DNA of 63,941 bases, the filler included, from Reclinomonas americana ATCC 50394 (Eukaryota): the NCBI GenBank assembly GCA_048213135.1. It is 15 parts of 15 records of this genome, joined end to end, with 100 filler letters (N's around TTAATTAATTAA, not from the genome) between each part and the next. Parts side by side here need not be neighbours in the genome. Positions count along the whole stretch, not along the records: positions 1 to 12,914 come from AFZH01018997.1; 14 more parts are not named here. The stretch is one strand, 5' to 3'. The notes beneath the pieces are model-generated. The model had not been told where the DNA came from, made no database searches, and was given only the letters and a program-made list of their open reading frames with translations. A program made the position numbers and the translations under genes. Positions 8-63,460 of the stretch are shown piece by piece. Position 1 is the first letter of the stretch, and each line of letters opens with the position of its first letter.

Positions 8-820
8 TCACATCACGTACCCCAAATGGCGCCGCAGATTGCGGCGGTGCGTGGCAAGAGCGCGCTCCTTCTCGCCACGGACTTGCTTGGCATACGGCGA
101 GAGCTGGCGCACTTCCTCGCTCACGGCAAGGATGCGCTGGTGCTTGGCAAAGGCAAGACGATCGCACACTGCCACCGTCTGCTTGATGTGGGCCTCGTTG
201 GCGTGGAATTTGTGCGTCTGCTTGACGCCCAGCGTCTTCCGGGCGTGGAGCAGTGCCTGGGTGGTGAACGGAGTGTCGGGGTTGTTGTAGCCGAGCTTCT
301 GCAATACGGGAGAGAGAGGAAGCGCGCGCGCGCGCGGGAATCGTGAGGTCAGCGAACTGCAGGTGGTGATTCGATGCGCGCCAAAATTAATAGACACGCA
401 CGATGCTGTAGTCGCGGTGCTGGCTCTGGGCGCCGCGGTGGCCATTGATGGAGGTCATGTCGTGGTAGATGGTGTAGTAGGCGACGCTGCGACTATTGAC
501 ACGGTGCACGGCGTAGGAGGCAAAGGCCTTGTCGATGTGCTCGTCATCAAAGCACCTCTGCACGGCAAGCTCCTGCTCTTCAGCATCACGGTACTTCGCT
601 GCGGTGGGCGCACTGTGAGAACACAGTGGTACCAGGGGGAAGAGCAACACGGCGGCGAGCACGCACCCAGTGGACAGTAGTGTTCGCGGAGAAAAGTCAT
701 GAACTGCTTGACCATGATCTGCTGGTTGCGCAGGGTGTTGGCCTTGTTCTGGTGTGTGCGCTGCCACTCCTCAAGCTGCTCGTGGATGCGCCGCACGTAA
801 TCATCCGCCTCCTCGCTCAT
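8..820 (-). CDS. Multi-exon gene running off the window start; resembles the N-terminal core-binding domain of a tyrosine recombinase (DIRS/Crypton/Cre-like)
   Basis: ATG at 820, GT-AG intron 666-599 and a further intron. Spliced protein: MSEEADDYVRR...NKANTLRNQQIMVKQFMTFLREHY...AYYTIYHDMTSI...KLGYNNPDTPFTTQALLHARKTLGVKQTHK. This resembles the recalled YR pattern 'NT...F..F / TI...SI...G..NP...L...R+..G'. No catalytic residues are visible in the window. Confidence 0.4.
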
Positions 821-992
821 GATGCGCTCTCTGCAGCAGGAGGAAATGCAGTGAGGGTATAATTGGCTGAAACTAATGGCGAGAGCGATTGGTGAAATAC
901 ACAGCGCGTGCTGCGCGTTCTCCTGAAATACGCAGCGCGTGCCCTGCTCTTTCAACTAATCCAGAACCCCTCTGATTCTCCTTAATACTCAC

Positions 993-1279
993 AATGTGCT
1001 GGCCGTCAGGAGTGACAGTGACGGAGATCACATTTGCAGTGTGTCCCACCAGCCGTCGCACTTCCTCTCCGCTCGCCAGCGACCACACACGTACCGACCC
1101 GTCATAGCCCCCACTCACGATAAACTGACCGTCGGGAGTCACAGCGACACCTCGCACCGCGTCTGTGTGACCCCGCAAGACCTGTGTCACACGATGAGAT
1201 GTACGCGTATAGAGAGAGCAACAGTCAAACACACGAATCCCTCACACGCACACACATGTGAGCGCACCTTGGTTGCCAT
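993..1279 (-). pseudogene. Truncated WD40 gene, array copy 1 (about 1.6 repeats); possibly the 5' part of a fusion transcript
   Basis: Exon 1 ATGGCAACCAAG (MATK, 1279-1268), intron GTGCGC...CAG (1267-1182), then VLRGHTDAVRGVAVTPDGQFIVSGG...TPDGQHI. Similarity to the other copies stops abruptly near 990. Confidence 0.75.
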
Positions 1280-3601
1280 TGGAAACGAGGAAGCATAAAT
1301 GTCACTTGTGCCCTCTCTCTCTTTCTGGTTCGCTTCTGTTGACTTGCGCTCTTCGGAGAGCAAGCCACCTGCGGTACTCTGCTGTGGTAAACGAAGAGTC
1401 TGTTCTTATCTCGTGTGTGCGTGTGTTATGTGTGTTTATGTGTGATTGCTCGCTCGGGATTGTCACCGTTTCCCGCCTTTCTTCTCCCACCTTGCTCCAA
1501 GACGCTGTCCATCCGTCGCCAGGCTGCAGCCAGTACCCCACTCAGCATACAGCAGTATGAGAGCGATGTGGCTTCTTTGATGCGTGCGGGCTTTCGAAGA
1601 CCGACACGGGACTCGTTATTGCGAAATCGGCAAAATGGACATGCTGGCGACACAAAGTGGCGCTCCACTGCATCGCGCTGCTGTCCAGCGACATTTCATT
1701 GCGACTGGCCTGCACTATCTCTCAACGAGGACTGGCATGTCGTGCTGCTTGGATGTGCAGTTGCGGCCCTGTTGTGCTGATGCCACGTCACACCCGAGAA
1801 TCCAATGAGCAGCGGGTCTGCGAAACCTCACCTCCTCGGATCGGTCCACAGCGAGGTTGAGGTGAGACAATGAAGAAAAGGAGTCACAAGGAACAGGAGA
1901 GGAGCAATAAGCAGCGGTGGAAGAGGCAGCTGCGTCGTGAGACTCGCTTCCTCTCATCCAAGTCACAATCAATGCCTCGCGCTTTCAATCACACTCACAG
2001 TCGGTCGGTGCATTGTCTCATGCATGTACTGTGACGCATGAAACCACGTGTTGCCCAGTGGCCAATCACTTGCCAGCACGCGCGCCTGTGACACAGAATG
2101 GAGTCAGTCAATCTCCAAGTCTCACCAACTTACTCCTCAACGCAGATGCAGAACACGTACGCACCAGGCTACGCGCGCGTCTGCAGTCTCCCATGGCCAC
2201 CACCATCATCACCAGGCAGTGACAGCAGCAACCAAGGTGCTCACATCATCGATCCGCTCCGACTTGCCAGCCGGATTGAAAACGATCCACCGACCAGGCC
2301 ACCGGCACACAGCACGGCACGCAGGTGTCCAGCTGCAGCCATGAGTAGATTGCCGAGCACGCGTCTGCAGTCTTCCATGGCCACCAGTATCATCACTCGA
2401 CAGAGGCAGCAGCAACCAAGGTGCACACATCATTGATCCGCTCCGACTTGCCAGCCGGGATTGAAAACGATCCACCGACCAGGCCATCCATCGCACATCC
2501 ACCCAGCCGCGCTCTCCATGACGTGCACGGCTTGCATAATTGAGGTGAGTGGGAGGGAAGGAGGAAAGAAAGATCACGCCGAACAAGTCCACACACCTGC
2601 TCAGTGCAGGGTGGGATGCGAGTGGGGAGCCGAGTGAGTGAGGTGACGGTCGACAACGGGCAATGCACATCACGCCTGCCATTACCACGACATGCTTTCC
2701 ATGGTCTCTGCATGGCGGTGTGCTGTGAGCGAAAGAACGGAGAAAGGAGAGAGAAATCTGCTGCTCTGTCTCAATGACGAACACACCGATCAGCACCTGA
2801 TACCAAAACGCGTTTGGTCAAGAGGCAAGGCGAGGGATGATTCAGCACACACATCCATCCTGCAAAGGAGAGGGAGAGAGAGAGAGAGAGAGCGAGCAGA
2901 GTCAGTATGCAGGTATGCCACCTCACACACTTCGGCATCGGGAAGCTCACCATGATAGACTGGCAGGATGGCAATCGGAACACGGTGAGCGGACCAGCAT
3001 GCTCGGCCTCGAGCGTGTGCGGGAGGGATGGGGTGGATGACTGGGGAGGCAGATGAGCGCACAAAGGAGAGAGACGGTGGGGAAAGAGAGAGACTCTGCA
3101 GGAGGCAGGAAAAAGAGAGCTGAAAGACAGGCATTCTTCGGGGCGGAAGGAGAATGTCCACGGCGCACAGGCACAATGGGAAGCAGAGCAGTGATGCCAA
3201 AGTGGTACGCAAAAGAAGACGCGAGGAAACAAACATCGATATCGGTGACTCGCTCTCCTGAGGCACATATATGCACGACTGAAGATGCACGCACAACAAA
3301 TATCACAACGAGACAGAAAGACACACTAGACTACCAAGTGATTCATCTTGCTCGCACACACAAATAGAGGTGATAAAGAGACACGCATGCAGAGGGAAAC
3401 GTGCTTCACGCCCGCACAATCACATTCATGTGACAAGAAAAAACCGACGGGAGAGCTCCTCGTAAACAACAATCTCTGCCTTCCTCTGTCATTCTCTCTC
3501 CCCACCTGCATCCCGCATGCTCACCAACTCTCCCTCGCAAGACACGAAAACAACTCACAATCACCAACAGCCACCGCTCTCCCTTCCTTCGACTCACCGA
3601 C

Positions 3602-4764
3602 TCAGCACCGGAAAAGGACGACCTCGGCATCCTCGGCGATGAAGCAGCGCAGAACCAGCTCGGGAAGGCATCGTGAATCTACTTCTTCCTCGACCACCTG
3701 CATCTCCAGCACAGCCGGCATGGCCGAGCGCGCAGCGTCGAGCTCGAGGCGAGCGAGGCCACGCGGCGCGGTCCACACTCTCACGGTCTTGTCGTAGCCA
3801 CCCGCACTCACAATGTGCTGACCATCGGGAGAGACAGCGACAGACGACGCCCATCCAGTGTGTCCCTCCAACCGTCGTACTTCCTCGCCACTTGCCAGAG
3901 ACCACATCCGAATTGTGCCGTCTCCGCTCCCACCAACGATGTGCTGGCCATCGGGAGTGACGGTGACAGACGACACCCATGCAGTGTGTCCGTCCAACCG
4001 TCGCACCTCCTCGCCACTAGCCAGAGACCAGACCCGCACAGTTTCGTCTCCACCACCACTCACAATATGCAGATTATCAGAGGTGGCGGAGACAGAACAC
4101 ACTCGATTTGTGTGCCCCGCCAGCCGTCGCACCTCCTCCCCACTCGCCAGAGACCACACCCGCACTGTGTTGTCGAAACTGCCACTCACGATGTGTTGAC
4201 AATCGGGAGTGACAGCGACTGACCACACCTTTTCGGTGTGGCCCGCCAACCGTCGCACCTCCTCCCCACTCGCCAGAGACCACACCCGTACAGTCTTGTC
4301 GAAGCCGCCGCTGACGATGCGCTGACCATCAGGAGTGACTGCGACAGACATCACCATGCCGGTGTGGCCCGCCAACCGTCGCAGCTCTTCCCCACTCGCC
4401 AGTGACCACATCCGCACTGTGTTGTCTCGACCCCCACTAACAATCTGCTGGCCATCAGGAGTGACGGCGACAGAAAACACCACATCAGCGTGTCCCCCCA
4501 GCCGTTGCACTTCTTCGCCACTCGCCAGAGACCACACTCGAACGGTGCCGTCCTCACACCCACCAACAATGTGCTTGCCATCGGGCGTGACGGCGACGGA
4601 TCGCACCACTGCGAGACTCTGAATGATCTGCGTCGATCACTCGCGGTGAGACGCACACACAAACATGAACACAAACAGCAACCACACACACGCACGAGCA
4701 CACGAATGCATGCACAGACACCAACCACGCAAAAGTGGGCACACATTCACACCTTTGTTTCCAT
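3602..4764 (-). CDS. WD40-repeat protein with 7 repeats and a SOCS-box-like C-terminus (copy 2)
   Basis: Exon 1 METK (4764-4753), intron 4752-4628, exon 2 in frame: IIQSLAVVRSVAVTPDGK... with seven 42-aa GH...TVRVWS repeats. Stop at 3602. Confidence 0.9.
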
Positions 4765-6910
4765 TCTCCGTGTGTGGTGAGTGTGTTTTGCTCGCTCTGG
4801 ATTGTCACCGTTTCCCGCCTTTCTTCTCCCGCCTTGCTCTGAGACCTCGCCAGGCTGCAACCAGTACGCCACACAACATACAGAAGTATGGCTTCTTTGA
4901 TGCGTGTGGGCTTTTGAAGACCACCAGGGGACTCGTCGATGAGAAATCGGCAGCATGGACATATGCATGCTGGCGACACAAGGTGGCGCTCCACTGCTCC
5001 GTGCATGCCCAGCGACACTTCATTTCGACTGTCCTGTATTCTCTCTCAACGAGGACTGGCATATCGGGCTGCTTGGGTACGCAGCTGTGGCCCTGGTGTG
5101 CAGGTGCCATAGCGCACCCGAGAATCCATGGAGCACCGAGTCTTCGAAACCTCAAGCCTCCTCGGATCGGCCCACAGCGAAGCTGACGAGGTGCACGTCA
5201 TGACTGCACGACGAAGAAGGAGAGTCACAGGGAACAGGAGAGGAGAGACCAGCACAGCAGCACAACGATGGACGAGGCAGCTGCGTCGTGAGGCTCGCCT
5301 CCTCTCACCCAACTCACAATCAATGCTTCATGCCTTCAATCACACTCACAGTCGGTCGGTGCATTGTCTCATGCATGTACTGTGTGGCACGGAACCAAGT
5401 GTCTTCGCATGCCAGTGACGAGTCACTTGCCAGCACGCTAATCACACAGAATTGAGTCAGTCAAATCTCCATGTCTCACCAACTTACTCCTCAACGCAGA
5501 TGCAGAACACGCACGCACCAGGCCACGCGCGCGTCTGCAGTCTCCCATGGCCACCAGTATCATTACTTGGCGGCGACAGCAGCAACCAAGAAGCGCACAT
5601 CATCGATCCGCTCTGACTTGCCAACCGGGATCGAGAACGATCCACCGACCAGGCCACCCATCGGGAACACGACACGCATGTGTCCACCCATGAGTAGATT
5701 GCCGAGCACGCGTCTGCAGTCTTCCATGGCCACCAGCATCATCACTCGAGAGACGGCGGCAGCCAAGGTGCGCACATCATCGATCTGCTCCGACTTGCCC
5801 AGCCGGGATTGAAAACGATCCACCAACCAGGCAATCGCATATCACGACACGCATGTGTACATCCCCCCACCACGCACTCCTTGACGAGCACGGCCTGCAC
5901 GAATGAGGTGAGTGGGAGGGAAGGAGGAAAAGAGAGATCACGAAGAACAGGGCCACACAACTGCTGGGATGCGAGTGGGGAGCCGAGTGAGTGAGGTGAC
6001 GGTCGACAACGGGCAATGCACATCACGCCTGTCATTACCACGACATGCTTTCCATGGTCTCTGCATGCCGGTGTTCTGTGAGCAAAGAATGGAGGACGGG
6101 GAGAGATATCTGCTCTGTCTAACTGACAAACACACCGATCAGCATCTGATACCAACGCGCGTTTGTCAAGAGGCAAGCCAAGGGACGTTCACACAACCAT
6201 CCTGCAAGGGAGAGAAGGAGCAGAGTCAGTATGCAGGTATGCCACCTCACACATTTCGGAATCGGGAAGCTCACCGTGATGGACTGGCAGGATGGCAATT
6301 GGAACACGGTGAGCGGACCAGAATGCTCGGCCTCGAGCGTGTGCGGCAAGGAGGGGCGGATTACTGGGGAATCAGATGAGCGCACAAAAGCAGGGAGATG
6401 GCGGAGAAAGAGATAGACTTTGCAGGAGGCAGGAAAAAAGAGAGCTGAAAGACAGGCATTCTTCGCAGTCGCACGTGCACAATGGGAAGCAGAGTATAGA
6501 GGTGCCAATGAGGTGTGCAAAACAAGACGCGAGGGAAACAGATAACGGTGACTCGCTCTCATGAGGCACGTATATCAGCGACGAAAGATGCACACACAAC
6601 AGACTTCACAACGAGGAGAAAAGAAATCACAGACTCCCAAGCGATTCATCGAGTTTGCACACACAAATGGAGGTGAGAAAGAGGCACGCATGCAGAGGGA
6701 GATGTGCTTCACTACCTCTCTCTCACTCACATGATAGGGCAACAAGCACAGAGAACAATTCTGCATCATCCACGTCGACTTCTCTCCTCTCGTCTGTCAT
6801 CCTCTCTTCCCCCACCCACACCCACATGATCACCCACTCTCCCTCGCAAGACACGAAAGCAACTCACGATCACCAGCAGCCACCGCTCTCCCATCCTTTG
6901 GCTCACCTTC

Positions 6911-8575
6911 TCAGCACCGAAAAAGGACGACCTCGGCATCCTCGACGATGAAACAGCGCAGAACCAGCTCGGGAAGACATCGTGAATCTACTTCCTCCTC
7001 CTGCATCTCCTGCACAGCCTGCATGGCCGAGCGCGCGGTGTCGAGTTCGAGACGGGCAAGGCCGCGCGGCGTGGACCACACTCGCACGGTCTCGTCGTAG
7101 CCACCCGCGCTCACAATGTGCTGACCATTGGGAGTGGCGGCAACAGACATCACCAGGTCCGAGTGTCCCTCTAACCGTCGTATTTCCTCGCCACTCGCCA
7201 GAGACCACACCCGCACGGTACAGTCCCCACCCCCGCTCACGATATGTTGGCCGTCGGGAGTGACGGCAACAGACCACCCAGGGCGAGTATGTCCCTCTAA
7301 CCGTCGCACTTGGTCTCCAGTCGCCAGTGACCATACTCGCACGGTGTTGTCCCCACCGCCACTCACAATGTACTGACCATCGGGAGTGACGGCGACAGAC
7401 CACACCATGCCAGTGTGTCCTTCCAATCGGCGCACTTCTTCGCCGCTCGCCAGAGACCAGACTCGACTGTGTTGTCGAAGCTGCTGCTGATGATGTGCCG
7501 ACCATCGGGAGTGACGACGACAGACAACACCCTAGTGTGCCCCTCCAACCGCCGCACCTCCTCCCCATGTACATGTGACCACACCCGCACTGTCTTGTCG
7601 AGGCTGCCACTCACGATATTCAGACCATCGGAGGTGACTGCGACGGACACCCGTATTGGAGTGTCCCTCCAACCGTCGCACCTCTTCTCCGCTCGCCAGA
7701 GACCATACCCGCACGGTGCTGTCCTCGCTCCCACTCACAATATGCTGACCGCTGGGAGTAACAGCGACGGCGCACACCCTTCCAGTGTGTCCCTCCAACT
7801 GTCGCACCTCCTCACCACTTGCCAGTGACCACACTCGTACTGTGCAGTCCCAGCTCCCACTGATTATGTGCTGACCATCGTAAGTGACGGCAACAGAGTA
7901 CACCAAGCCAGTGTGTCCTTCCAACCGTCGCACCTCCTCCCCACTCGCCAGTGACCACACCGCACTGTGTTGTCTTCACCGCCGCTCACAACGTGCTGAC
8001 CATCAGGGGTGACGGCGACACAATACACCCATCCAGTGTGTCCCACCAGCGGTCGCACCTCCATCCCACTCATCAAGGACCACACACGCACGGTAAAGTC
8101 TCCGCCCCCACCGACAAAAAGCTGACCATCAGGAGTGACGGCGACAGACGACACCCCGCCAGCGTTTCCCACCAGCCGTCGCACTTCTTCCCCACTCGCC
8201 AGAGACCACATTCGAACGGCGCTGTCCTCACATCCAGCAACAAAGTGCTTGCCATCAGGGGTGACGGTGACAGACCACACCGTTCTAGAGTGTCCACCCA
8301 GTCGTCGCTCTTCTTCCCCACTCGCCAGAGACCAAATTCGGATGGTGCCGTCGTCACACCCACCAACAATGTGCTTGCCATCGGGAGTGACGGCGACGGA
8401 CCACATCGCAGCGCGACTCTGAATGATCTGCAGCTGTGCCGATCACCCGCGGTGAGACGCACATGTACATGAACAAACACAAAGAACAACAACCGCACAC
8501 ATGCACAAGCACACGAATGCACGCACAGACACCAACCACGCAAAAGTGCGCACACATTCACACCTTTGTTGTCAT
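6911..8575 (-). pseudogene. WD40 gene copy 3 with 11 repeats and three frameshifts
   Basis: Exon 1 MTTK (8575-8564), exon 2 from 8427. The repeats are split over ORFs 7864-8406, 7532-7960, 7363-7734 and 6911-7435, with frame changes near 7960, 7650 and 7465. Same C-terminal tail as the other copies. Confidence 0.8.
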
Positions 8576-10748
8576 TCTCCGTGTGTGTAGTGTATGTGTG
8601 TGTGCGTTGCTCGCTCGGGATTGTCATCATTTCCCGCCTTTCTTCTCCCGCCTTGCTCCGAGACGCCGTCCATCCGTCGCCAGGCTGCAGCCAGTACCCC
8701 ACACAGCATGCAGTAGTGTGAGAGCAATGTGGCTTCTTTGATGCGTGTGGGATTTTGAAGACCGATATGAGCCTCGTCGATGCGAAATCGGCAAAATGGA
8801 CATGCTGGTGGTGACGACACAAGGTGGCACTCCACTGCACCGTGCTGCTGTCCAGCGACACTCTCTTTCAACTGATCTGCATTATCTCTCAACGAGGACT
8901 GGCATGTCGGTCTGCTTGGATACGCAGTTGTGGCCCTGGTGGGCAGATGCCATGGTACACCCGAATCCATGGAGCACCGAGTCATCGATACCTCAAGCCT
9001 CCTTGGATCGGCCCACAGCGAGGTTGATGATGGTACGATGAAGAAGGAGAGTCACAGGGAACAGGAGAGGAGAGACCAGCACAGTAGCACGTGCACATCG
9101 ATGGAACAGGCAGCTGCGTCGTGAGGCTCGCCTCTCACCCAAGTCACAATCAATGCCTCGTGCCTTCAATCACACTCACAGTCGGTCGGTGCATTGTCTC
9201 ATGCATGCACTGTGTGGCACGGAACCACGTGTCTTCGCATGCCAGTGACGAGTCACTTGCCAGCACGCCTATCACACAGAATTGAGTTAGTCAATCTCCA
9301 AGTCTCACCAACTTACTCCTCAACGCAGATGCAGAACACGTACGCACCAGGCCACGCGCGCATCTGCAGTCTCCCATGGCCATCATTATCATTACCTGGC
9401 GGCGACAGCAGCAACCAAGAAGCGCACATCATCGATCCGCTCTGACTTGCCAACCGGGATCGAGAACGATCCACCGACCAGGCCACCCATCGGGAAACAC
9501 GACACGCACGTGTCCACCCATGAATAGATTGCCGAGCACGCGTCTGCAGTCTTCCATGGCCACCAGCATCATCACTTGACATAGACGGCGGCAGCCAAGG
9601 CGCGCACATCATTGATCCGCTCCGACTCGCCAGCCGGGACTGAAAACGATCCACCGACCAGGCCATCCATCGCACATCACGACACACATGTGTACATCCA
9701 CCCAGCAACGAATTCCACGGCATGCACGACCTACACGACTGAGGTGAGTGGGAGGGAAGGAGGAGAGAGAGATCACGACGAACAAGGCCACACACCTGCA
9801 TCGTGCAATGGTGGGATGCGAGTGGGGAGCCGAGTGATTGAGGTGACAGCCGACAACGGGCGATGCACACCAAGTCTGTCATCGCCACGACATGCTCTCC
9901 ATGGTCTCTGCATGCCGGTGTACTGTGAGCAAAAGAATGGAGGACGGGGAGAGAAATCTGCTCTGTCTCAACGACGAACACACCGATCAGCACCTGATAC
10001 CAACGCGCGTTTGTCAAGAAGCAAGCCAAGGGACGCTCACACAACCGTCCTGCAAGGAGAGAGAAGGAGCAGAGTCAGTATGCAGGTATGCCACCTCACA
10101 CACCTCGGCATCGGGAAGCTCATGATCACCGTGATGGACTGGCAGGATGGCAATCGGAACACGGTGAGCGGACCAGCAGCTCGACCTCGAGCGTGTGCGG
10201 CAAGGAGGGGCGGATTTCTGGGGAATCAGATGAGCGCACAAAGGCAGGGAGATGGCGGAGAAAGAGATAGACTATGCAGGAGGCAGGAAAAAGAGAGCTG
10301 AAAGACATGCATTCTTCGCAGTCGCACGTGCACAATGGGAAGCAGAGTATAGCGGTGCCAAGGAAGTATGCAAAGCGAGACGCGAGGGAAACAATCATCG
10401 GTGACTGGCTCTCATGAGGCACATACACGCGCGATGAAAGATACGCACAACAGACATCACAACGAGACAAAAAGACACAACAGACTCCAAAGTGACCCGT
10501 CGCGCTTGCACACAAAATAGAGGTGAGAATGAGACACGCATCCAGAGAGAGATATCCTTCACGCCCACACTCACATTCACATGACAGGGCAACAAGCACG
10601 GTGAGCAATAACAACGATCTCTCTGCCTTTCCTCTGTCTTCTCTCTTCCGCCATCCAGCACTCGCATGATCACCCACTCTTCCTCGCAAGACACGAAAAA
10701 CAACTCACAGCACCAGCAGCCATCTCTCTCTCCCTCCGACTCACCAAC

Positions 10749-11934
10749 TCAGCACCGGAAAAGGACGACCTCGGTATCTTCGACGATGAAGCAGCGCAGA
10801 ACCATCTCGGGAAGGGATCGAGAATCTACTTCCTCCTCGTCCTCCTGCATCTCCTGCACAGCTTGCATGGCCGAGCGCGCGGCGTCGAGTTCGAGACGAG
10901 CGAGGCCACGCGGTGTGGACCACACTCTCACGGTCTTGTCGTAGCCACCCGCGCTCACAATGTGCTGACCATCGGGAGAGACGGCAACAGATATCACCAG
11001 GTGCGTGTGTCCCTCCAACCGTCGCACCTCCTCGCCATTCTCCAGAGACCATACCCGCACGGTGCTGTCCTCGCTCCCACTCACGACGTGCTGGCCATTG
11101 GAGGTGATGGTGACAGACGAGACCCATCCAGTGTGTCCTTCTAGTCGTCGCACTTCTTCTCCACTCCTCAGTGACCACACTCTCACCGTTTTGTCCCTAC
11201 TGCCACTCACGATGTGCTGACCGTCTGGAGTAACAGCGACAGAAATCACCCAGTCAGTGTGTCCCTCCAACCGCCGCACTTCTTCGCCGCTCGCCGGCAA
11301 CCATACCCGCACTGTCTTGTCTCCACCCCCACTCACAACGTGCTTGCCATCGGGGGTGACTGCCACAGACCACACCGAAATAGCGTGTCCCTCTAACCGT
11401 CGCACCTCCTCGCCACTCTCCAGCGACCACACTCGCACTGTCTTGTCGAAGCCGCCGCTGACGACGCGCTGACCATCAGGGGTGAAGGTGACAGACATCA
11501 CAGCATTGGTGTGGCCTTCCAGCCGCAGCACCTCTTCTCCACTCTCCAGCAACCACACACGCACGGTACGGTCTCCACACCCACTCACTAACTGCTGGCC
11601 ATTGGGGGTGACGGCGACAGACCACACCGAACCAGCGTGTCCATCCAGTCGTCGCACTTCTTCCCCACTCGCCAAAGACCACACACGAACGGAGCTGTCC
11701 ATGCACCCACCAACAATGTGCTTGCCATCGGGAGTGATGGTGACGGACCGCACCGAAGAAGCGAGACTCTGAATGATCTGTGACGATCACTTGCAGTGAG
11801 ACGCACGCAGTAGCAATCAAAGACAACATAACAACACAAAGAACAACAACCGCACACGAATGCACAAGCACACAAATGCACGCACAGACACCAACCACGC
11901 AAAAGTGCGCATACATTCACACCTTGGTTGTCAT
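10749..11934 (-). CDS. WD40-repeat protein with 7 repeats and a SOCS-box-like C-terminus (copy 4)
   Basis: Exon 1 MTTK (11934-11923), exon 2 from 11777 in frame with ORF 10749-11753. Confidence 0.9.
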
Positions 11935-12914
11935 TCTCCGTGCGTGCGTGTGTGTGAGTGAGTTGCTCGCTCGGGATTGTCACTGGTTCCCGCCTTTCTT
12001 CTCTCGCCTTGCTCTGAGGCGTCGTCCATCCGTCGTCAGGCTGCAGCCAGCACCCCACACAGCATGCGGTAGTGAGTGAACGATGTGGCTTCTTTGATGC
12101 GTGCGGGCTTTCGAAGACCGATACGGGACTCGTTGTTGCGAAATCGGCAAAATGGACATGCTGGCGACACAAAGTGGCGCTCCACTGCATCGCGCTGCTG
12201 TCCAGCGACATTTCATTGCGACTGGCCTGCATTATCTCTCAACGAGGACTGGCATGTCGTGATGTGCAGTTGCGGCCCTGTTGTGCTAATGCCATAGCAT
12301 TCCCGAGAATCCAATGAGCAGCGAGTCAGCGACACCTCACACATAGGATCGGCCCACAGCGATGCTGACGAGGGCACGATGATGGTACGACGAAGAAGGA
12401 GAGTCACAGGGAATAGGAGAGGAACGACCATAACAGCAGCACAGCAATGGAAGTGGCAGCTGTGTCGTGAGACTCGCCTCCTCCCACCCAAATCACAATC
12501 AATGCTTCGTCCTTCAATCACACTCACATTCGGTCGGTGCATTGTCTCATGCATGCACTGTGTGGCACGGAACCACGTGTCTTCGCATGCCAGTCACTTG
12601 CCAGCACGCCTGTCACACAAAACTGAGTTAGTCAATCTTCAAGTCCCGCCAACTTACTCCTCAACGCAGATGCAGAACACGTACGCACCAGGCCACGCGC
12701 GCGTCTGCAGTCTCCCATGGCCACCACCATCATTACTTGGCGGCGACAGCAGCAACCAAGAAGCGCACATCATCGATCCGCTCCGACTTGCCAGCCGGAT
12801 TGAAAACGATCTACCGACCAGGCCACCCATCGGGAAACACGACACGCATGTGTCCACCCATGAGTACATTGCCGAGCACGCGTCTGCAGTCTTCCATGGC
12901 CACCAGCATCATCA

Positions 12915-13014
12915 NNNNNNNNNNNNNNNNNNNNNNNNNNNNNNNNNNNNNNNNNNNNTTAATTAATTAANNNNNNNNNNNNNNNNNNNNNNNNNNNNNN
13001 NNNNNNNNNNNNNN
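12915..13014. other. Artificial gap linker, first of 14 (others start at 17008, 22086, 29336, 31628, 33133, 35489, 38071, 40296, 47567, 52895, 56683, 58420, 60844)
   Basis: 44 N + TTAATTAATTAA (stop codons in all six frames) + 44 N, identical each time. Confidence 0.98.
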
Positions 13015-13749
13015 GACATCCTCCGCCACACACTCCTGCCTTTCCTCGGCATGGACATTGGCAAGCGCGGTCTCTGGCGTGTCTCCACCTCTTTCTGTCG
13101 CCTGTGGGAGTCAAGCTCGATTCCCTCACCTGTCGCGTGCGCCGATTGTGGCCAGCAAGCGGGCAAATCGCTGGGCGACTTGGTGGAGGGCGCATCGACT
13201 GGTTGCCCCGGTCACTCGCGATCACCTGACGGAACCGGAGGACACCCGTGCTGCAACCTGCGCGTGTGTCGCCAGTGCAGAGAGCAGCGTCCGCAGAGCG
13301 ACGGTGAACTTGCTGGTCGTCTGCTGGCCAGCGGGGACCTGAAGGAGTGCTCTCAGTGTCATGAGCGTCGCTGCTGCGCCAAGCATTGCGAGGTGAGCTG
13401 GACCGAGTGCGCCGGCTGTGAGGAGTGGCGCTGCGACGACATGTGCACGGAGGGGATGGCGGAGTGTCAAGTGTGCGGCAATCGATACTGTGATGAGGAC
13501 TGCGCGCGAGGCAGCATCGTTGGTCAGTGCCACAGGTGCGGGCGATTCGCGTGCGAGGATTGCTGCACAGAACTGAAGCGCTGGAAGCTGGAGTGTGCGA
13601 TATGCGGGGGGTGGAGCCGGCGCCGGTCCGCGTACGACGATGAGGAGGATGGGGAAGAGGATGAGGAAGAGGATGAGGAAGAGGAAGAGGATGAGGAAGA
13701 GGAAGAGGATGAGGAAGAGGAAGAGGAAGAAGAGGAGGATGAGTACTGA
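13015..13749 (+). CDS. Intronless F-box-like protein with many CxxC motifs and a poly-acidic tail (5' end lost in gap)
   Basis: Reads DILRHTLLPFLGMDIGKRGLWRVSTSFCRLW, followed by more than 10 CxxC pairs and a D/E tail. Clear paralog of 15921-16571. Confidence 0.75.
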   Translation, partial: DILRHTLLPFLGMDIGKRGLWRVSTSFCRLWESSSIPSPVACADCGQQAGKSLGDLVEGASTGCPGHSRSPDGTGGHPCCNLRVCRQCREQRPQSDGELAGRLLASGDLKECSQCHERRCCAKHCEVSWTECAGCEEWRCDDMCTEGMAECQVCGNRYCDEDCARGSIVGQCHRCGRFACEDCCTELKRWKLECAICGGWSRRRSAYDDEEDGEEDEEEDEEEEEDEEEEEDEEEEEEEEEDEY

Positions 13750-15688: not shown

Positions 15689-15920
15689 GGCGCCAGTTCT
15701 GCATAGATAGAATCGGCTGCAACCGCTCTACTGTATGGCCGCGACATATGCAGCAGAACGCACATGGGCGTCGACAAGAGCAGTGAACGAAGCGACATGT
15801 CGACATGTCGACATCGATGTCGACCGTCGACGTCTACTCACTCAATTTTCCCTTCTCCTGCGCGCGCACACACACTGCTCTCACCCCACCTCCCCTCTCT
15901 CCCTCCCTCCCTCTGTCATC

Positions 15921-16571
15921 ATGGACCACGACTCTGCGCCCGCCCCTCATGCTGTCGACATGCTCTCGCGCTTGCCTCCCGACGTCCTCCAACACACACT
16001 GCTGCCATTCCTCGGCGTGGAAGTAGGCACGAAGGGTCTCTGGCGCGTCTCCACTTCCTTTTGCCGCCTGTGGGAGTCGAGCTCGATTCCTGCGCCCATT
16101 GCGTGCGCCGATTGTCGCCAGCAAGCTGGCAAGACGCTGAGCGACATGGTCGAAGGTGAGGCGGCCGGCTGCCCTGGTCACGGGGCATCGGCAAGAGTCA
16201 TGAGAAGGCGTCCGTGCTGCAACGTGCGCATCTGTCGCCAGTGCGTGGAGCGGCGCTCGCTGGATGGAGACGACGAGTCCATGGAGGATGATCTGGTGGC
16301 CAGCGGAGAGCTGACGGCGTGTGCTTGTTGCCAAGAGCACCGCTGCACCAAGTATGCCACGTCGCGCTGGCTGCAGTGCGATTCATGCAACATCCGGTTC
16401 TGCGAGGAGTGTTCGAGGGAGTTGTCGGAGTGCGAAGTGTGTGGTATGCGCTACTGCGACGAGAACTGTCACCACCACATGGCTGGCGAGTGCAACTCCT
16501 GCGGGCAAATTGTGTGCAGGGACTGCGCCTCAGGAGTGCGAGGAAGGCTGACGTGTTCCATGTGCGATTAA
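15921..16571 (+). CDS. Intronless F-box-like, CxxC-rich protein
   Basis: MDHDS...MLSRLPPDVLQHTLLPFLG...LWRVSTSF (F-box pattern LP..V...IL.FL...L..VS+.F), followed by repeated CxxC motifs. Confidence 0.75.
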   Translation: MDHDSAPAPHAVDMLSRLPPDVLQHTLLPFLGVEVGTKGLWRVSTSFCRLWESSSIPAPIACADCRQQAGKTLSDMVEGEAAGCPGHGASARVMRRRPCCNVRICRQCVERRSLDGDDESMEDDLVASGELTACACCQEHRCTKYATSRWLQCDSCNIRFCEECSRELSECEVCGMRYCDENCHHHMAGECNSCGQIVCRDCASGVRGRLTCSMCD

Positions 16572-60943: not shown

Positions 60944-63460
60944 CGCCTCGTTTTCTGTCGGCGCAAAGGTAGGGGAAAGGGTAAGCGTACAAGAATGTGT
61001 GGGGAGGGTGGTGGGAACAACGCACCGAGCTTCTCCGTGAAAAAGTCCACCTTGCCGCTCTGCACCGCCACTCCACTCGGCTGCACAATGTACATTTGCG
61101 CCGAGTACCGACGCCCCGGCAAGAGCGTGCCGCCCAACTCCATTCGCTCGTCGGCCACGTGGCCGACGGCATATGCAACGGGTGTCTTCATCGGGTTGAC
61201 CGTGTCCTGTGATGCGGACAGTGAGCATGCAGGGAGAGGAGCAGGGGGTGGATTGATAAATGTGCGATGAATGTGAATCTCAATTGGAGATGACGTACCA
61301 AAATCGCTGCAATGCACGGCGCCCCGTCGACCGTGTGCGGTGGCAGCATCCACGTGATGGTCACTCCGTACGGTGTGGTACGGTCGACCTGCAACGACAT
61401 GGGCTCTGCGCGAGACACACAGTTGTCAGCGAGAGGCGCAGACTTCCAGAAACGACGGCACGGCGCACCTTGGCACTTCCACACACGCAAACGCCGATCG
61501 TCACCACCCGTGGCCAGCGCGAGCCCATCGGGGCTCCACTGCACCGTGTTGATGCCGCCGCGGTGCGCGTCTTCGATACATTGTTGCTCGGAGTACGGGT
61601 ACGATGCGTCCCACTGTGATGGCGGTGCTGATGAGCAAGAAATGAAGACTTGTGTGGCGCAGTACCTGCAGAATGCCTCTATGACTGTGACGGACTGCAG
61701 TGGCGCACTGTCTGCTCCTTGTATCATCTATTGACACACCCCATCGTCAGAATTCGTGGTGCGCTGTCTACGAAGCGCCACTTCTACGGCTACAGCGAGT
61801 CGCCGGCATCATCGCGCACTCTCTGAAAGTGTCTCTATGACTATTGCGGAGTGCAGACTTTCGTGGTGCACTGCGTGCTCTTTGTGTTCCTAACAGCGCA
61901 GCTCATTGCCAGCATTCGTGGTGCACTCTGTGTGCAAAGTGCCCCAACCACAACTACATCGTACGCAGACTCATTTCGTGGTCTACTCGGTGCCAAGCTC
62001 TACGAATACGGCGGACTGCAGACATGCGTGGGGTGCACTCTGTGCAAGGAGACTCCTCTGCGAACTGCAAAAAGCTTGCGGTCCACTGCCTGTTCTTTGT
62101 GCTCGTGGTTCGCTATCTGCAAAGCGTCCCTTCCTGAACTTCAAACATTCTCCTTCCACACAAACACACACATCCTTCTCACTACCGCCACGCACCACTC
62201 GCAAAGTCCGATCCAGTGAGACGGATGCGATTCGTGTACCGTCGTGTCGCAATGACACGCCCATGATCGCTTCCTGTGGCACAGGGTGAGTACACGAACT
62301 GTAGTTGTGATGGGAGAGGTAGGCTCGAAGATGCACCTTGTGGCCGACAAATGTGGTCAGCAACTCGCCCGTTTCGGCATTCCACAGCTTCAGCTGTCGA
62401 TCGTACGAGCCCGACACGCAGGTGGGCACCCAATCACCCGCCGACTGAACGAGTGCGGTGAGTGTCTGAGTGGTCACAAAGTCACACGAGAAGCGACTCG
62501 ACTTACCGACTGCTGCAGAGCACCCGACACGGTGGTGATACCGGCAGTGTGGGAACGCAGCACGTGCAGCGACTCGGCGGAGCCACGCCGCGTGTCCCAC
62601 ACTCGCAGTGTCGAGTCCTCGGAGCTGCAGAGGCGCAGTATGAGCAACCTCGATGACATTCATCACCACCAGGAGCCCATGGCCACTCACCACGACACAA
62701 TCAGGTGATCCTTGTCGGCCCATGTCACGCCCGTCACCGCCAGTGTGTGCCCCACCAGTTTGGTGGCCTGTTCTCGCGACCGAATGTCCCACAGACAACA
62801 CATGTTGTCTTTGGAGACAGACGCCAGCAGCGACTCTTCACGTGGGTGAAAGGCGACGCCCGATACTCCCGACGTGTGCCCGCCCTCGAGCGTCACCGGT
62901 GGGGTGTCGGCCTGCATGACAGCCACAGAGAGGGAGAGAAAAACGAGACACGGCCGTTGGCATTGCGGAGGGATGTGCACGCCGACGACGATGATGCAGA
63001 AGCTCACCACAGGCTGCGATCCAAAAGTCCACAAGAGAATGTTGCCGTCCTCGGAGCACGTGGCTGCAAGAAGGAAGACGAGTCACAACAAAGCATACGT
63101 GTGGACGGTGTGCCGAGTTACGCACCCAGCATTGCTCCCTGCACATCCCCATGATGGGCACGAAATGAGCACACAGGAAGGCTGCAGCACGCGGAATGAC
63201 GCACACAACGCACCGACACGCTCCACGACATCGACCGCACATTGTTGGTGTGGCCGTGCAGGGTGTCGGCCAGGCTAAACTCACGTCCTCGCGCCAGCAA
63301 CTTGGCACGGTACTCGACGCTGGTGGCGACCTGTCAGACGGGCGGTGAGGAGATGACGGACACAGAGAGAGAGAGAGGTAATCAAGTAAACCTCGTCGGG
63401 TCGCGATGGAGGCGCCGAGTCCCACACAGTGACGGATTGATTGTGTTTCAGCAGTCCTGC
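60944..63460 (-). CDS. WD40-repeat protein followed by a fibronectin-III-like domain; both ends incomplete
   Basis: Divergent WD repeats (GHTNNVRSM, GHTSGVSGVAFHP, GHTLAVTGV, AHRGGINTVQWSPDG), then EPMSLQV...VTITWMLP...LLPGRRYSAQM. Confidence 0.75.

What the first reader, a model, noticed from the sequence alone, without database searches (positions are those of the whole stretch)
3602..11934. Tandem WD40 genes with homogenised repeats but hypervariable top-face residues
Seen: the 42-aa repeats keep a near-constant scaffold (GH-x-x-x-V-x-SVAVTPDGQHIVSG-G/S-x-D-x-TVRVWSLASGEEVRRL), while a few positions change in nearly every repeat. These are the pair before V (DV, GM, EK, NR, AW, GW, NA, IS, DW, HL, RT), the residue before SV (F, M, W, C, S, I, Y) and the residue before D (R, F, G, E, W, L). 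Established: this pattern characterises the Podospora HET-D/HET-E (NWD) recognition WD40s. Here the propellers stand alone, with no NACHT domain. Inference: a rapidly diversifying non-self or pathogen-recognition family in a protist.
Basis: partly seen in the sequence, partly recalled or inferred. Interest (0 to 1): 0.75.

Follow-up and report, generated by a model that had tools for sequence, protein, structure and literature searches.

The report
Tandem stand-alone WD40 propellers, variable top face
A protist contig carries a tandem array of small propeller-protein genes whose framework is kept constant while the residues of the usual binding face change faster than neutral, a pattern known from fungal self/non-self receptors but here without any signalling domain.

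Summary
On the minus strand of the first contig (1-12914) lie three copies of a 3.3-3.8 kb unit and one truncated relic. Genes A and C each encode a 7-bladed WD40 propeller plus a conserved 55-aa tail. B has 11 repeats and three frameshifts.

In 26 repeat units, positions 4, 5, 7, 23 and 25 of the 42-aa repeat carry 2.4-3.3 bits of entropy. All other positions carry at most 1.97 bits.

In the AlphaFold model these five positions sit in the d-a loop/start of strand a and in the b-c turn. These are the top-face hotspot positions, and four of them equal the positively selected codons of Podospora NWD genes.

They change faster than neutral: omega is 1.3-2.6, and 38 of 51 codons differ against 27.5 expected (P 0.006). 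The scaffold has omega about 0.2.

"Homogenised" is wrong. Repeats are about 70% identical in DNA, dS is about 0.8, and same-gene similarity shows no excess. Selection keeps the scaffold, not concerted evolution.

No NACHT or other domain lies in the unit. The tail has one relative, an EST-derived ORF. A recognition or immune role is untested.

Verdict: a new variant of the known highly repetitive WD40 class. Interest is moderate.

The parts
3602..4627 (-). Gene A, main exon: 7 WD40 units, C-terminal tail and stop codon
   Evidence: ORF; Pfam WD40 E 9e-76. An in-frame TGA lies 4 codons upstream of a conserved acceptor ..CAG|ATC.
4753..4764 (-). Gene A, proposed 12-nt first exon ATGGAAACAAAG followed by the donor GTGTGA. 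The proposed intron is 4628-4752 (125 nt).
   Evidence: ATG-N6-AAG|GTGTGAATGT is conserved upstream of A, B and C and is in phase with exon 2. Inferred; no RNA evidence.
3602..3772 (-). Gene A C-terminal tail (56 aa after ..RVW) and stop codon
   Evidence: Tail dN/dS is 0.11-0.38 among A, B and C. Pfam and PDB give no credible match. In the model of C it is a low-confidence helix followed by a disordered end.
6911..8427 (-). Gene B, main exon: 11 WD40 units and the tail. It is out of frame at about 7960/7961 (-1, in a G run), 7651/7652 (-2) and 7465/7466 (-1), and has an in-frame 3-nt deletion at about 7531/7532.
   Evidence: Unit lengths are 125, 124 and 122 nt for B4, B7 and B8. The tail is still under purifying selection. 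It is either a probable pseudogene or carries assembly errors.
8564..8575 (-). Gene B, proposed first exon ATGACAACAAAG. The proposed intron is 8428-8563 (136 nt).
   Evidence: inferred
10749..11777 (-). Gene C, main exon: 7 WD40 units, tail and stop codon
   Evidence: ORF; Pfam WD40 E 3e-79. AlphaFold2 model: mean pLDDT 89.6, 7 blades. Foldseek: 5yzv TM 0.96, rmsd 1.0.
11923..11934 (-). Gene C, proposed first exon ATGACAACCAAG. The proposed intron is 11778-11922 (145 nt). Position 11934 is the end coordinate of the finding.
   Evidence: inferred
990..1172 (-). Copy D: a truncated relic of 1.5 WD40 units at the edge of the array. Similarity to the repeat ends at ..CACATTGTG|AGTATT.
   Evidence: Its upstream spacer is homologous to the others (K 0.19-0.21), but the mini-exon is not kept.
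4765..6910 (.). Spacer between B and A. The equivalent spacers are 1233-3601, 8576-10748 and 11935-12914.
   Evidence: Spacers align along their whole length; K is 0.11-0.14 among A, B and C. 0 of 140 ORFs of 45 aa or more match Pfam at E <= 0.01. No Rfam family reached gathering score and no tRNA was found.
12915..13014 (.). 100-bp contig linker (44 N, TTAATTAATTAA, 44 N). The array is cut here by the end of its contig.
   Evidence: 14 such linkers in the window

Best explanation
What it is. This is a lineage-specific, tandemly duplicated family of small stand-alone WD40 proteins. Each intact gene (A, C) probably starts with a 4-codon mini-exon and a 125-145-nt intron. It encodes a 7-bladed propeller closed by its N-terminal strand, followed by a conserved ~55-residue tail of no known family.

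How it evolves. The propeller framework and the tail are held by purifying selection. The framework includes a complete Asp-His-Ser-Trp network in nearly every blade. Five positions per blade, all on the top (ligand-binding) face, differ in every blade. Between related blades they are replaced faster than neutral.

Most likely mechanism (inferred). Each paralogue offers a different binding surface on an identical rigid scaffold. The invariant tail connects all of them to a common partner or location.

How the family grows. It grows by birth and death: duplication of the 3.3-3.8 kb unit, gain and loss of 126-nt units (7, 11, 7), and decay (frameshifted B, truncated D). It does not grow by concerted evolution.

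Shown: anatomy, fold, selection pattern, absence of other domains. Inferred: gene start, ligand binding, role of the tail.
For: - Array: units are 80-85% identical including the spacers.
- Fold: pLDDT is about 98 over 7 blades. Strand a spans positions 6-11, b 17-22, c 26-31 and d 37-42. Foldseek gives TM 0.96 and rmsd 1.0 to PkwA WD40 (5yzv); 2ymu, WRAP-T designs and WDR5 follow. phmmer to 2ymu gives E 4e-134.
- Variable positions 4, 5, 7, 23 and 25 lie in the d-a loop/second residue of strand a and in the b-c turn. Positions 5, 7 and 23 are the R1-2, R1 and D-1 hotspots (PMC3419727, passages). Positions 5, 7, 23 and 25 equal NWD codons 7, 9, 25 and 27 (PMC1805685, sections 9 and 10).
- Scaffold: omega 0.16 over all pairs and 0.21-0.28 in independent pairs. 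Tail: omega 0.11-0.38.
- Variable sites, 13 disjoint pairs: omega 1.64-1.71, bootstrap 95% interval 1.25-2.33.
- Positions chosen on one gene and tested on the other two: omega 1.30 (P 0.13), 2.56 (P 1e-5) and 1.69 (P 0.016).
- Neutral simulation at the 4-fold-site rate: 48 of 63 codons differ against 33.9 +/- 3.8 expected (P 0.0005).
- The same simulation with position sets fixed from the literature: 38 of 51 against 27.5 (P 0.0055) and 29 of 38 against 20.4 (P 0.0065).
- With pairs matched without using third codon positions: 44 of 51 against 33.0 (P 0.0015).
- Trp makes up 13 of 128 residues at the variable positions. That fits a binding surface better than drift.
- Unit turnover: 7/11/7 units. 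The interior of the array diverges more between A and C (p 0.21-0.29) than the spacers do (0.04-0.19) or the anchored ends (0.11-0.16).
- A relative is transcribed. P0121 is an ORF that its source derives from an EST. It is 67% identical over 107 aa including the tail.
Against: - No RNA evidence for these genes. The start codon and mini-exon are inferred only. The three introns seen in another gene of the window are shorter, about 65-70 nt.
- One of the three full-length copies is out of frame. The assembly is a draft of 2-13 kb contigs, so errors or mosaics inside repeats cannot be excluded.
- The selection tests compare paralogous repeat units within one genome, not orthologues or alleles. 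Pairing of units is by similarity, and the sites are treated as independent.
- One of the three cross-validation splits was not significant (P 0.13).
- With the variable codons' own, noisy synonymous rate, omega was 0.77-0.91.
- No ligand, partner or phenotype is known. The tail has no recognisable family.
Confidence: 0.58

Rival explanations
1. The array is a propeller-only immune or allorecognition repertoire. It would be functionally equivalent to the WD40 sensor domains of fungal HET-E/HET-D/NWD receptors. The variable propellers would sense non-self molecules and signal through a separate partner recruited by the common tail.
For: The same four codon positions evolve fastest as in NWD genes. 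Replacement is faster than neutral. Unit number varies among copies, and broken and truncated copies exist, as in NWD loci (PMC1805685 section 8 and figure 1 legend). The tandem family is restricted to one lineage.
Against: No NACHT, HET, TIR or other signalling domain lies in the genes or spacers. There is no concerted evolution. No population data, expression data or link to any incompatibility or infection phenotype exists. Diversified top faces on a conserved scaffold are a general trait of highly repetitive WD40 proteins (PMC5587647, passages).
Confidence: 0.15
2. This is an ordinary young, repetitive WD40 family in which the top-face positions are simply unconstrained. The apparent omega above 1 would come from the choice of sites, the pairing of units, an underestimated neutral rate, or exchange of units between non-orthologous positions.
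For: With the variable codons' own synonymous rate, omega is 0.77-0.91. One cross-validation split gave P 0.13. Units are clearly shuffled, which makes divergence times uncertain. The class is already described, with diverse hotspot sites (PMC5587647).
Against: Position sets fixed beforehand from two papers still exceed the neutral simulation (P 0.0055 and 0.0065). The excess remains when pairs are matched without third codon positions. Non-coding spacers diverge less than synonymous sites, not more. Trp and other hotspot-type residues are enriched at these positions.
Confidence: 0.2
3. The array is decaying or artefactual: pseudogenes, or a misassembled repeat in a draft genome.
For: B has three frameshifts and D is truncated. 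No gene has an ATG in its main exon in a conserved place. The window is glued from small contigs.
Against: A and C are open over 1 kb. Scaffold omega is about 0.2 and tail omega 0.11-0.38, including comparisons with B. The only tail indel seen among A, B and C is a multiple of three (6 nt). Units differ by 15-30%, too much for collapse by an assembler. A transcribed relative exists.
Confidence: 0.05

Closest known systems
WD40 domains of the Podospora anserina NWD/HNWD genes (het-E, het-D, het-R and relatives)
   Same: The repeats are 42 aa with a very conserved scaffold. The fastest-evolving codons are the same structural positions: a pair flanking the conserved Val at the start of strand a, and a pair flanking the conserved Asp of the b-c turn, both on the top face. 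Unit number differs among family members, and broken copies exist.
   Different: There is no NACHT NTPase and no N-terminal HET or other effector domain. Repeats are about 70% identical in DNA rather than up to 100%. There is no concerted evolution (units group by position, not by gene). The genes lie in a head-to-tail array of 3.3-3.8 kb units, carry a conserved C-terminal tail of no known family, and sit in a non-fungal eukaryote.
Highly or moderately repetitive WD40 proteins (Hu et al. 2017, PMC5587647), e.g. Nostoc punctiforme 2YMU and Thermomonospora PkwA 5YZV
   Same: The repeats are consensus-like with the full Asp-His-Ser/Thr-Trp network. Hotspot positions are diverse on a conserved scaffold. 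These are the best matches in sequence and structure. The closest database proteins share the scaffold V-x-SVAVTPDG...VSGS-x-D-x-TVRVW.
   Different: Internal identity here is 0.64-0.73, around the 0.7 cut-off. Those proteins are mostly bacterial and are often fused to kinase, STAND, TIR or other domains. Here the propeller stands alone with an orphan tail, in a multi-copy tandem gene array in a eukaryote. Bacterial species representatives reach only 28-44% identity.
WDR5-type single 7-bladed WD40 adaptors
   Same: Stand-alone 7-bladed propeller of about 300 residues that binds partners by its top face. TM is 0.85-0.92 normalised to the WDR5 chains.
   Different: WDR5 is single-copy, slowly evolving and has dissimilar blades. 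Here the blades are near-copies, the family is multi-copy, and the top face diversifies.

Membership tests
WD40 beta-propeller (Pfam PF00400) | Tandem ~40-aa GH...WD repeats that fold into a 7-bladed propeller of four-stranded blades | tested here: met
   PF00400 E 9e-76 and 3e-79 with 7 and 6 matched stretches. AlphaFold2 model with 27 strands in 7 blades plus an N-terminal closing strand, pLDDT about 98. Foldseek TM 0.96 to 5yzv.
WD40 beta-propeller (Pfam PF00400) | Asp-His-Ser/Thr-Trp hydrogen-bond tetrad in the blades | tested here: met
   In 20 internal units, H2 is kept in 95%, S20 in 85%, D24 in 100% and W30 in 100%. Assigning these columns to the tetrad follows PMC3419727 (passages) and is my mapping.
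Highly-Repetitive WD40 proteins (Hu et al. 2017) | Internal repeat identity of at least 0.7 (0.4-0.7 counts as moderately repetitive) | tested here: inconclusive
   Mean pairwise amino-acid identity is 0.64-0.65 over all units and 0.69-0.73 over internal units. Their exact measure was not reproduced.
Highly-Repetitive WD40 proteins (Hu et al. 2017) | Conserved repeats with diverse predicted hotspot sites | tested here: met
   PMC5587647 section 'Highly-Repetitive WD40 proteins' (passage seen)
Fungal NWD/HNWD (HET-E/HET-D) NLR-like family | Central NACHT NTPase domain | tested here: not met
   The genes match only WD40-type families. 0 of 140 spacer ORFs of 45 aa or more, on both strands, match any Pfam family at E <= 0.01.
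Fungal NWD/HNWD (HET-E/HET-D) NLR-like family | N-terminal effector domain (HET or other) | tested here: not met
   The exon starts 4-6 codons after an in-frame stop, and the only conserved upstream ATG gives 4 codons.
Fungal NWD/HNWD (HET-E/HET-D) NLR-like family | Concerted evolution: repeats up to 100% identical that cluster by gene or species | tested here: not met
   DNA identity is 0.695 within genes and 0.699 between genes, with a maximum of 0.85 within a gene. dS between units is 0.83. 5 of 26 best matches are in the same gene; I estimate about 8 expected by chance. The tree groups first, last and A3/C3 units across genes.
Fungal NWD/HNWD (HET-E/HET-D) NLR-like family | Positive selection at the codon pairs flanking the conserved Val and Asp (their 7, 9, 25, 27) | tested here: met
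   At our positions 5, 7, 23 and 25, 38 of 51 codons differ against 27.5 +/- 4.1 expected under neutrality (P 0.0055). Omega is 1.3-2.6. The test is within one genome on paralogous units, so it is weaker than the site models the authors used on 69 repeats of one strain.
Fungal NWD/HNWD (HET-E/HET-D) NLR-like family | Repeat-number polymorphism | tested here: inconclusive
   7, 11 and 7 units among paralogues. Polymorphism among individuals could not be tested because no run was listed.
WD40 + SOCS-box proteins (WSB type); considered for the tail from recall only | C-terminal SOCS box recognisable by profile | tested here: not met
   The tails of A and C gave 0 Pfam families at E <= 10. B's tail gave only RRM_1 at 0.013, below its cut-off. 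A profile of four tails found nothing credible in the PDB (best E 0.63).

The most novel reading that the evidence does not exclude
A recognition repertoire made of propellers alone. The variable top faces would capture diverse (possibly non-self) ligands, and the invariant orphan tail would hand all of them to one common downstream partner. That would be an NLR-like sensor logic split into separate polypeptides. It would have evolved in a protist without a STAND NTPase and would be diversified by birth and death rather than by concerted evolution.
Probability: 0.12. Interest if true: 0.75.

Novelty: new variant of a known kind. Interest (0 to 1): 0.45.

Why it matters
Conserved-scaffold, variable-face repeat proteins are the raw material of several innate recognition systems and of designed binders. 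In WD40 proteins this pattern with demonstrated positive selection is documented for fungal NLR-like genes. There it is tied to a NACHT domain and to concerted evolution.

Here the same codon positions diversify faster than neutral in propeller-only genes of a non-fungal eukaryote, while the repeats have not been homogenised for a long time. If it holds up, two things follow:
- Diversifying selection on the WD40 top face does not need the NLR architecture or repeat homogenisation.
- The family is a small, tractable system (a 340-aa soluble protein with natural variants) for asking what such surfaces bind.

If it does not hold up, this is one more lineage-specific repetitive WD40 family.

Tried and rejected
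- Whole genome: none is held for this window, so family size in the genome is unknown.
- Sequencing runs: none was listed for 3400-12900 and no RNA holder was listed. Expression, splicing and read-level variation could not be examined.
- Earlier findings of the scan: nothing by place or by sequence.
- Generic homology search: only generic WD40 hits, best identity 57%. It gave no information on the family.
- Tail searches: none among proteins of 183-585 aa. Two hits in 1.84 billion representatives, of which only P0121 is real; the other is a repeat protein at E 3e-5 with 32% identity. None in metagenome contigs: 75 pattern matches, 0 confirmed.
- Bacterial donor (horizontal transfer): 29 loci in species representatives at 28-44% identity. 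No close donor was found, and the idea was not pursued.
- First guess at exon 1: a conserved ATGCATGAG...ACT|GTGAGT about 830 nt upstream. I set it aside in favour of the nearer mini-exon, because the introns seen in this organism are short.
- Trypanosomatid-like, intron-less reading: rejected after seeing GT-AG introns in an ordinary WD40 gene at 61188-63082.
- Sawyer-type permutation test for gene conversion: the sum of squared fragment lengths exceeded all 500 permutations. This cannot be interpreted, because variable sites are clustered along the repeat, so it is not used.
- Non-coding RNA in the spacers: one sub-threshold miRNA-model match (E 0.083, 28 bits against gathering 100) and no tRNA.
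- Cluster look-up of P0121 was switched off. The protein atlas was unreachable twice.
- No complex prediction was sent, because no binding claim is made.
Full report
**Setting.** The window has about 56% G+C. It contains 14 linkers of 44 N, TTAATTAATTAA and 44 N, so it is a chain of 15 small contigs. The finding lies wholly in the first contig (1-12914), whose right end cuts the array. No whole genome is held. No sequencing run was listed.

The organism is a eukaryote with spliceosomal introns. An ordinary WD40 gene at 61188-63082 is split by three GT-AG introns of about 65-70 nt, with donors GTGAGT, GTAAGT and GTGCAT.

**Anatomy of the array.** Self-comparison shows a head-to-tail array of a 3.3-3.8 kb unit on the minus strand. 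The copies are 80-85% identical over genes and spacers alike.

- Gene A (3602-4627) and gene C (10749-11777) are open. Each encodes seven 42-aa WD40 units followed by a 55-56-aa tail.
- Gene B (6911-8427) has eleven units. It loses the frame three times: -1 in a G run at about 7960, -2 at about 7651, and -1 at about 7465. It also has an in-frame 3-nt deletion.
- Copy D (about 990-1172) keeps only 1.5 units and then leaves the repeat. It marks the edge of the array.
- Next to D, a different gene begins at about 820 on the same strand.

**Gene starts.** In A, B and C an in-frame TGA lies 4-6 codons upstream of a conserved acceptor YAG|ATCATTCAG. The main exon therefore cannot be read from upstream, and it has no conserved ATG.

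A conserved ATG-N6-AAG|GTGTGA lies 125-145 nt upstream in all three genes, in phase with exon 2. I take it as a 4-codon first exon. This is inference only. The C copy of this ATG is at 11934, the end coordinate of the finding.

The spacers hold nothing recognisable:
- 0 of 140 ORFs of 45 aa or more, on both strands, match Pfam at E <= 0.01.
- No Rfam family reached its threshold, and no tRNA was found.

The propellers do stand alone.

**The repeat pattern.** I cut 27 units and aligned them at DNA level. The partial unit D2 was dropped, and codons of B that touch a gap were treated as missing. The numbering is G1 H2 T3 x4 x5 V6 x7 S8 V9 A10 V11 T12 P13 D14 G15 Q16 H17 I18 V19 S20 G21 G22 x23 D24 x25 T26 V27 R28 V29 W30 S31 L32 A33 S34 G35 E36 E37 V38 R39 R40 L41 x42.

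- Entropy in the 20 internal units is 2.38, 3.30, 3.01, 2.44 and 2.72 bits at positions 4, 5, 7, 23 and 25. No other position exceeds 1.97 bits.
- All 26 units have a different combination at these five positions. Trp makes up 13 of the 128 residues there.
It missed position 25.

**Structure.** An AlphaFold2 model of C was built from an alignment of 22 sequences. These were the two open window proteins and 20 of the 120 listed homologues, mostly those at the higher identities in that list (45-59% identity to C in the alignment).

- Mean pLDDT is 89.6, and about 98 over the propeller.
- There are seven blades. The N-terminal residues act as the closing strand.
- A lower-confidence helix spans 290-313, and the end (321-342) is disordered.
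- Foldseek finds PkwA WD40 (5yzv, TM 0.96, rmsd 1.0 A), 2ymu, the WRAP-T designs and WDR5. phmmer to 2ymu gives E 4e-134.

In the model, strand a is positions 6-11, b 17-22, c 26-31 and d 37-42. Positions 4 and 5 therefore end the d-a loop. Position 7 is the second residue of strand a. Positions 23 and 25 flank the Asp of the b-c turn.

By the established topology of WD40 propellers these elements form the top face (PMC1805685 section 10; PMC3419727 passages). Positions 5, 7 and 23 are the R1-2, R1 and D-1 hotspots of Wu et al. I had no coordinates, so clustering in space was not measured directly. It rests on the secondary structure of the model plus that topology.

**Comparison with NWD genes.** Paoletti et al. 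2007 (PMC1805685, sections 7-10 read) found four codons (7, 9, 25, 27) under strong positive selection. These flank the conserved codons 8 and 26 and lie on the top face. With an offset of two they are our 5, 7, 23 and 25.

**Is the scaffold homogenised? No.**
- Over all pairs of internal units, scaffold pS is 0.50 (dS 0.83) and omega is 0.16.
- Mean DNA identity is 0.695 within genes and 0.699 between genes. The closest same-gene pair reaches only 0.85.
- The best match of a unit lies in another gene for 21 of 26 units. I estimate that about 18 would be expected by chance, so same-gene similarity shows no excess.
- In a maximum-likelihood tree the first units (support 100), the last units (100) and A3+C3 (88) group across genes. 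Only C2+C4 (87) is a supported same-gene pair.

The constant scaffold is therefore kept by purifying selection on old repeats, not by concerted evolution.

There is unit turnover all the same. The copies have 7, 11 and 7 units. Between A and C the interior units differ more (p 0.21-0.29) than the spacers (0.04-0.19) or the anchored first unit, last unit and tail (0.11-0.16). This is best explained by gain, loss or exchange of units since the genes duplicated.

**Selection on the variable positions.**
1. With 13 disjoint nearest-neighbour pairs, omega at the five positions is 1.64 (bootstrap 95% interval 1.29-2.09). With the 8 closest pairs it is 1.71 (1.25-2.33). The scaffold gives 0.26-0.28.
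2. To avoid choosing and testing sites on the same data, I picked the five most variable positions on one gene and tested them on pairs from the other two. Omega was 1.30 (P 0.13), 2.56 (P 1e-5) and 1.69 (P 0.016).
3. A forward simulation let the codons mutate at the rate and transition bias seen at 248 four-fold sites of the same pairs.
   - All five positions: 33.9 +/- 3.8 amino-acid differences expected in 63 codons; 48 were seen (P 0.0005).
   - NWD-equivalent set, with the uncertainty of the four-fold rate resampled: 38 of 51 against 27.5 (P 0.0055).
   - Wu hotspots: 29 of 38 against 20.4 (P 0.0065).
   - Scaffold: 99 of 478 against 243.
   - Pairs matched on first and second codon positions only: the excess remains, 44 of 51 against 33.0 (P 0.0015).
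4. Against this reading, omega computed with the variable codons' own few synonymous sites is 0.77-0.91. All tests use paralogous units of one genome. A per-site tree-based count could not be made.

I conclude that replacement at the top-face positions is at least neutral and probably faster than neutral.

**The tail.** The sequence ..TPRGLARLELDAARSAMQAVQEMQ(ED)EEEVDSR(C/S)LPE(M/L)VLRCFIVED(A/T)EVVLFRC is conserved among A, B and C. Omega is 0.11-0.38 at dS 0.22-0.30, and the one indel is 6 nt. It has no credible Pfam match at E <= 10 and no PDB relative.

In 1.84 billion representative proteins only one true relative appeared, P0121 (116 aa, E 3.6e-11). Its source names it as an ORF from an EST. 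It is 67% identical to C over 107 aa, covering the last blade and the tail. The family therefore has at least one transcribed member elsewhere and is otherwise unseen in public protein and metagenome data.

**Relatives of the propeller.** The best database hits are generic WD40 proteins from metagenomes, bacteria and fungi, up to 57% identical in the search listing and 59% in the alignment. They share the same scaffold and the same free positions. Bacterial species representatives reach 28-44%.

Hu et al. 2017 (PMC5587647, passages read) defined highly and moderately repetitive WD40 proteins by internal identity of at least 0.7 and at least 0.4. They found them in prokaryotes, protists and fungi, and noted that their hotspot sites are diverse. 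Internal identity here is 0.64-0.73. The general pattern is therefore a known class property.

**What is particular here.**
- The architecture is propeller-only with an orphan tail.
- The genes form a tandem array.
- There is evidence for faster-than-neutral change at exactly the NWD positions.
- Concerted evolution is absent.

My literature searches turned up no description of such a family in a protist. These were four keyword searches of open-access text only.

**Verdict.** The most likely reading is a birth-and-death family of small WD40 binders with diversifying top faces and a common tail (confidence 0.58). Novelty: a new variant of a known kind. Interest: 0.45.

Noticed in passing
window 12915-13014 and 13 further sites (17008, 22086, 29336, 31628, 33133, 35489, 38071, 40296, 47567, 52895, 56683, 58420, 60844): 100-bp linkers of 44 N, TTAATTAATTAA (stops in all six frames) and 44 N. 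The window is a chain of 15 small contigs, so genes on different sides of a linker need not be neighbours in the genome.
   Followed up: yes
window 13051-13749 (+) and 15735-16571 (+): Two paralogous Cys-rich ORFs on the second contig are 49% identical over 187 aa. They share ..GLWRVSTSFCRLWESSSIP..ACADC.QQAGK.. and many CxxC pairs. The second has an upstream LPPDVLQHTLLPFLG stretch that looks F-box-like (recalled resemblance only). The first ends in a Glu/Asp run encoded by a (GAGGAA)n repeat at 13645-13743. No Pfam match.
   Followed up: partly
window 61188-63082 (-): An ordinary WD40 gene with dissimilar repeats, split by at least three short GT-AG introns of about 65-70 nt. It shows the intron style of the organism.
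   Followed up: partly
window 1233-3601, 4765-6910, 8576-10748, 11935-12914: The non-coding spacers of the array diverge less among A, B and C (K 0.11-0.14) than synonymous sites of the tail (dS 0.22-0.30). They contain an internal 180-nt tandem duplication (9359-9700). Either the spacers are constrained, or they were homogenised more recently than the coding repeats. Unexplained.
   Followed up: partly
window 8-955 (-): Just downstream of the array on the same strand a different gene starts (MSEEADDYVRRIHEQLEEWQ...). It probably has an intron. The one piece scanned (455-955) has no Pfam match.
   Followed up: no
window 5350-5376, 9180-9206, 12528-12554, 1999-2025 (-): A 27-nt ATG-started stretch followed by a consensus GTGAGT donor is conserved in all four spacers, about 830 nt upstream of the WD exon. 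It could be an alternative first exon or a relic. Unresolved without RNA data.
   Followed up: partly
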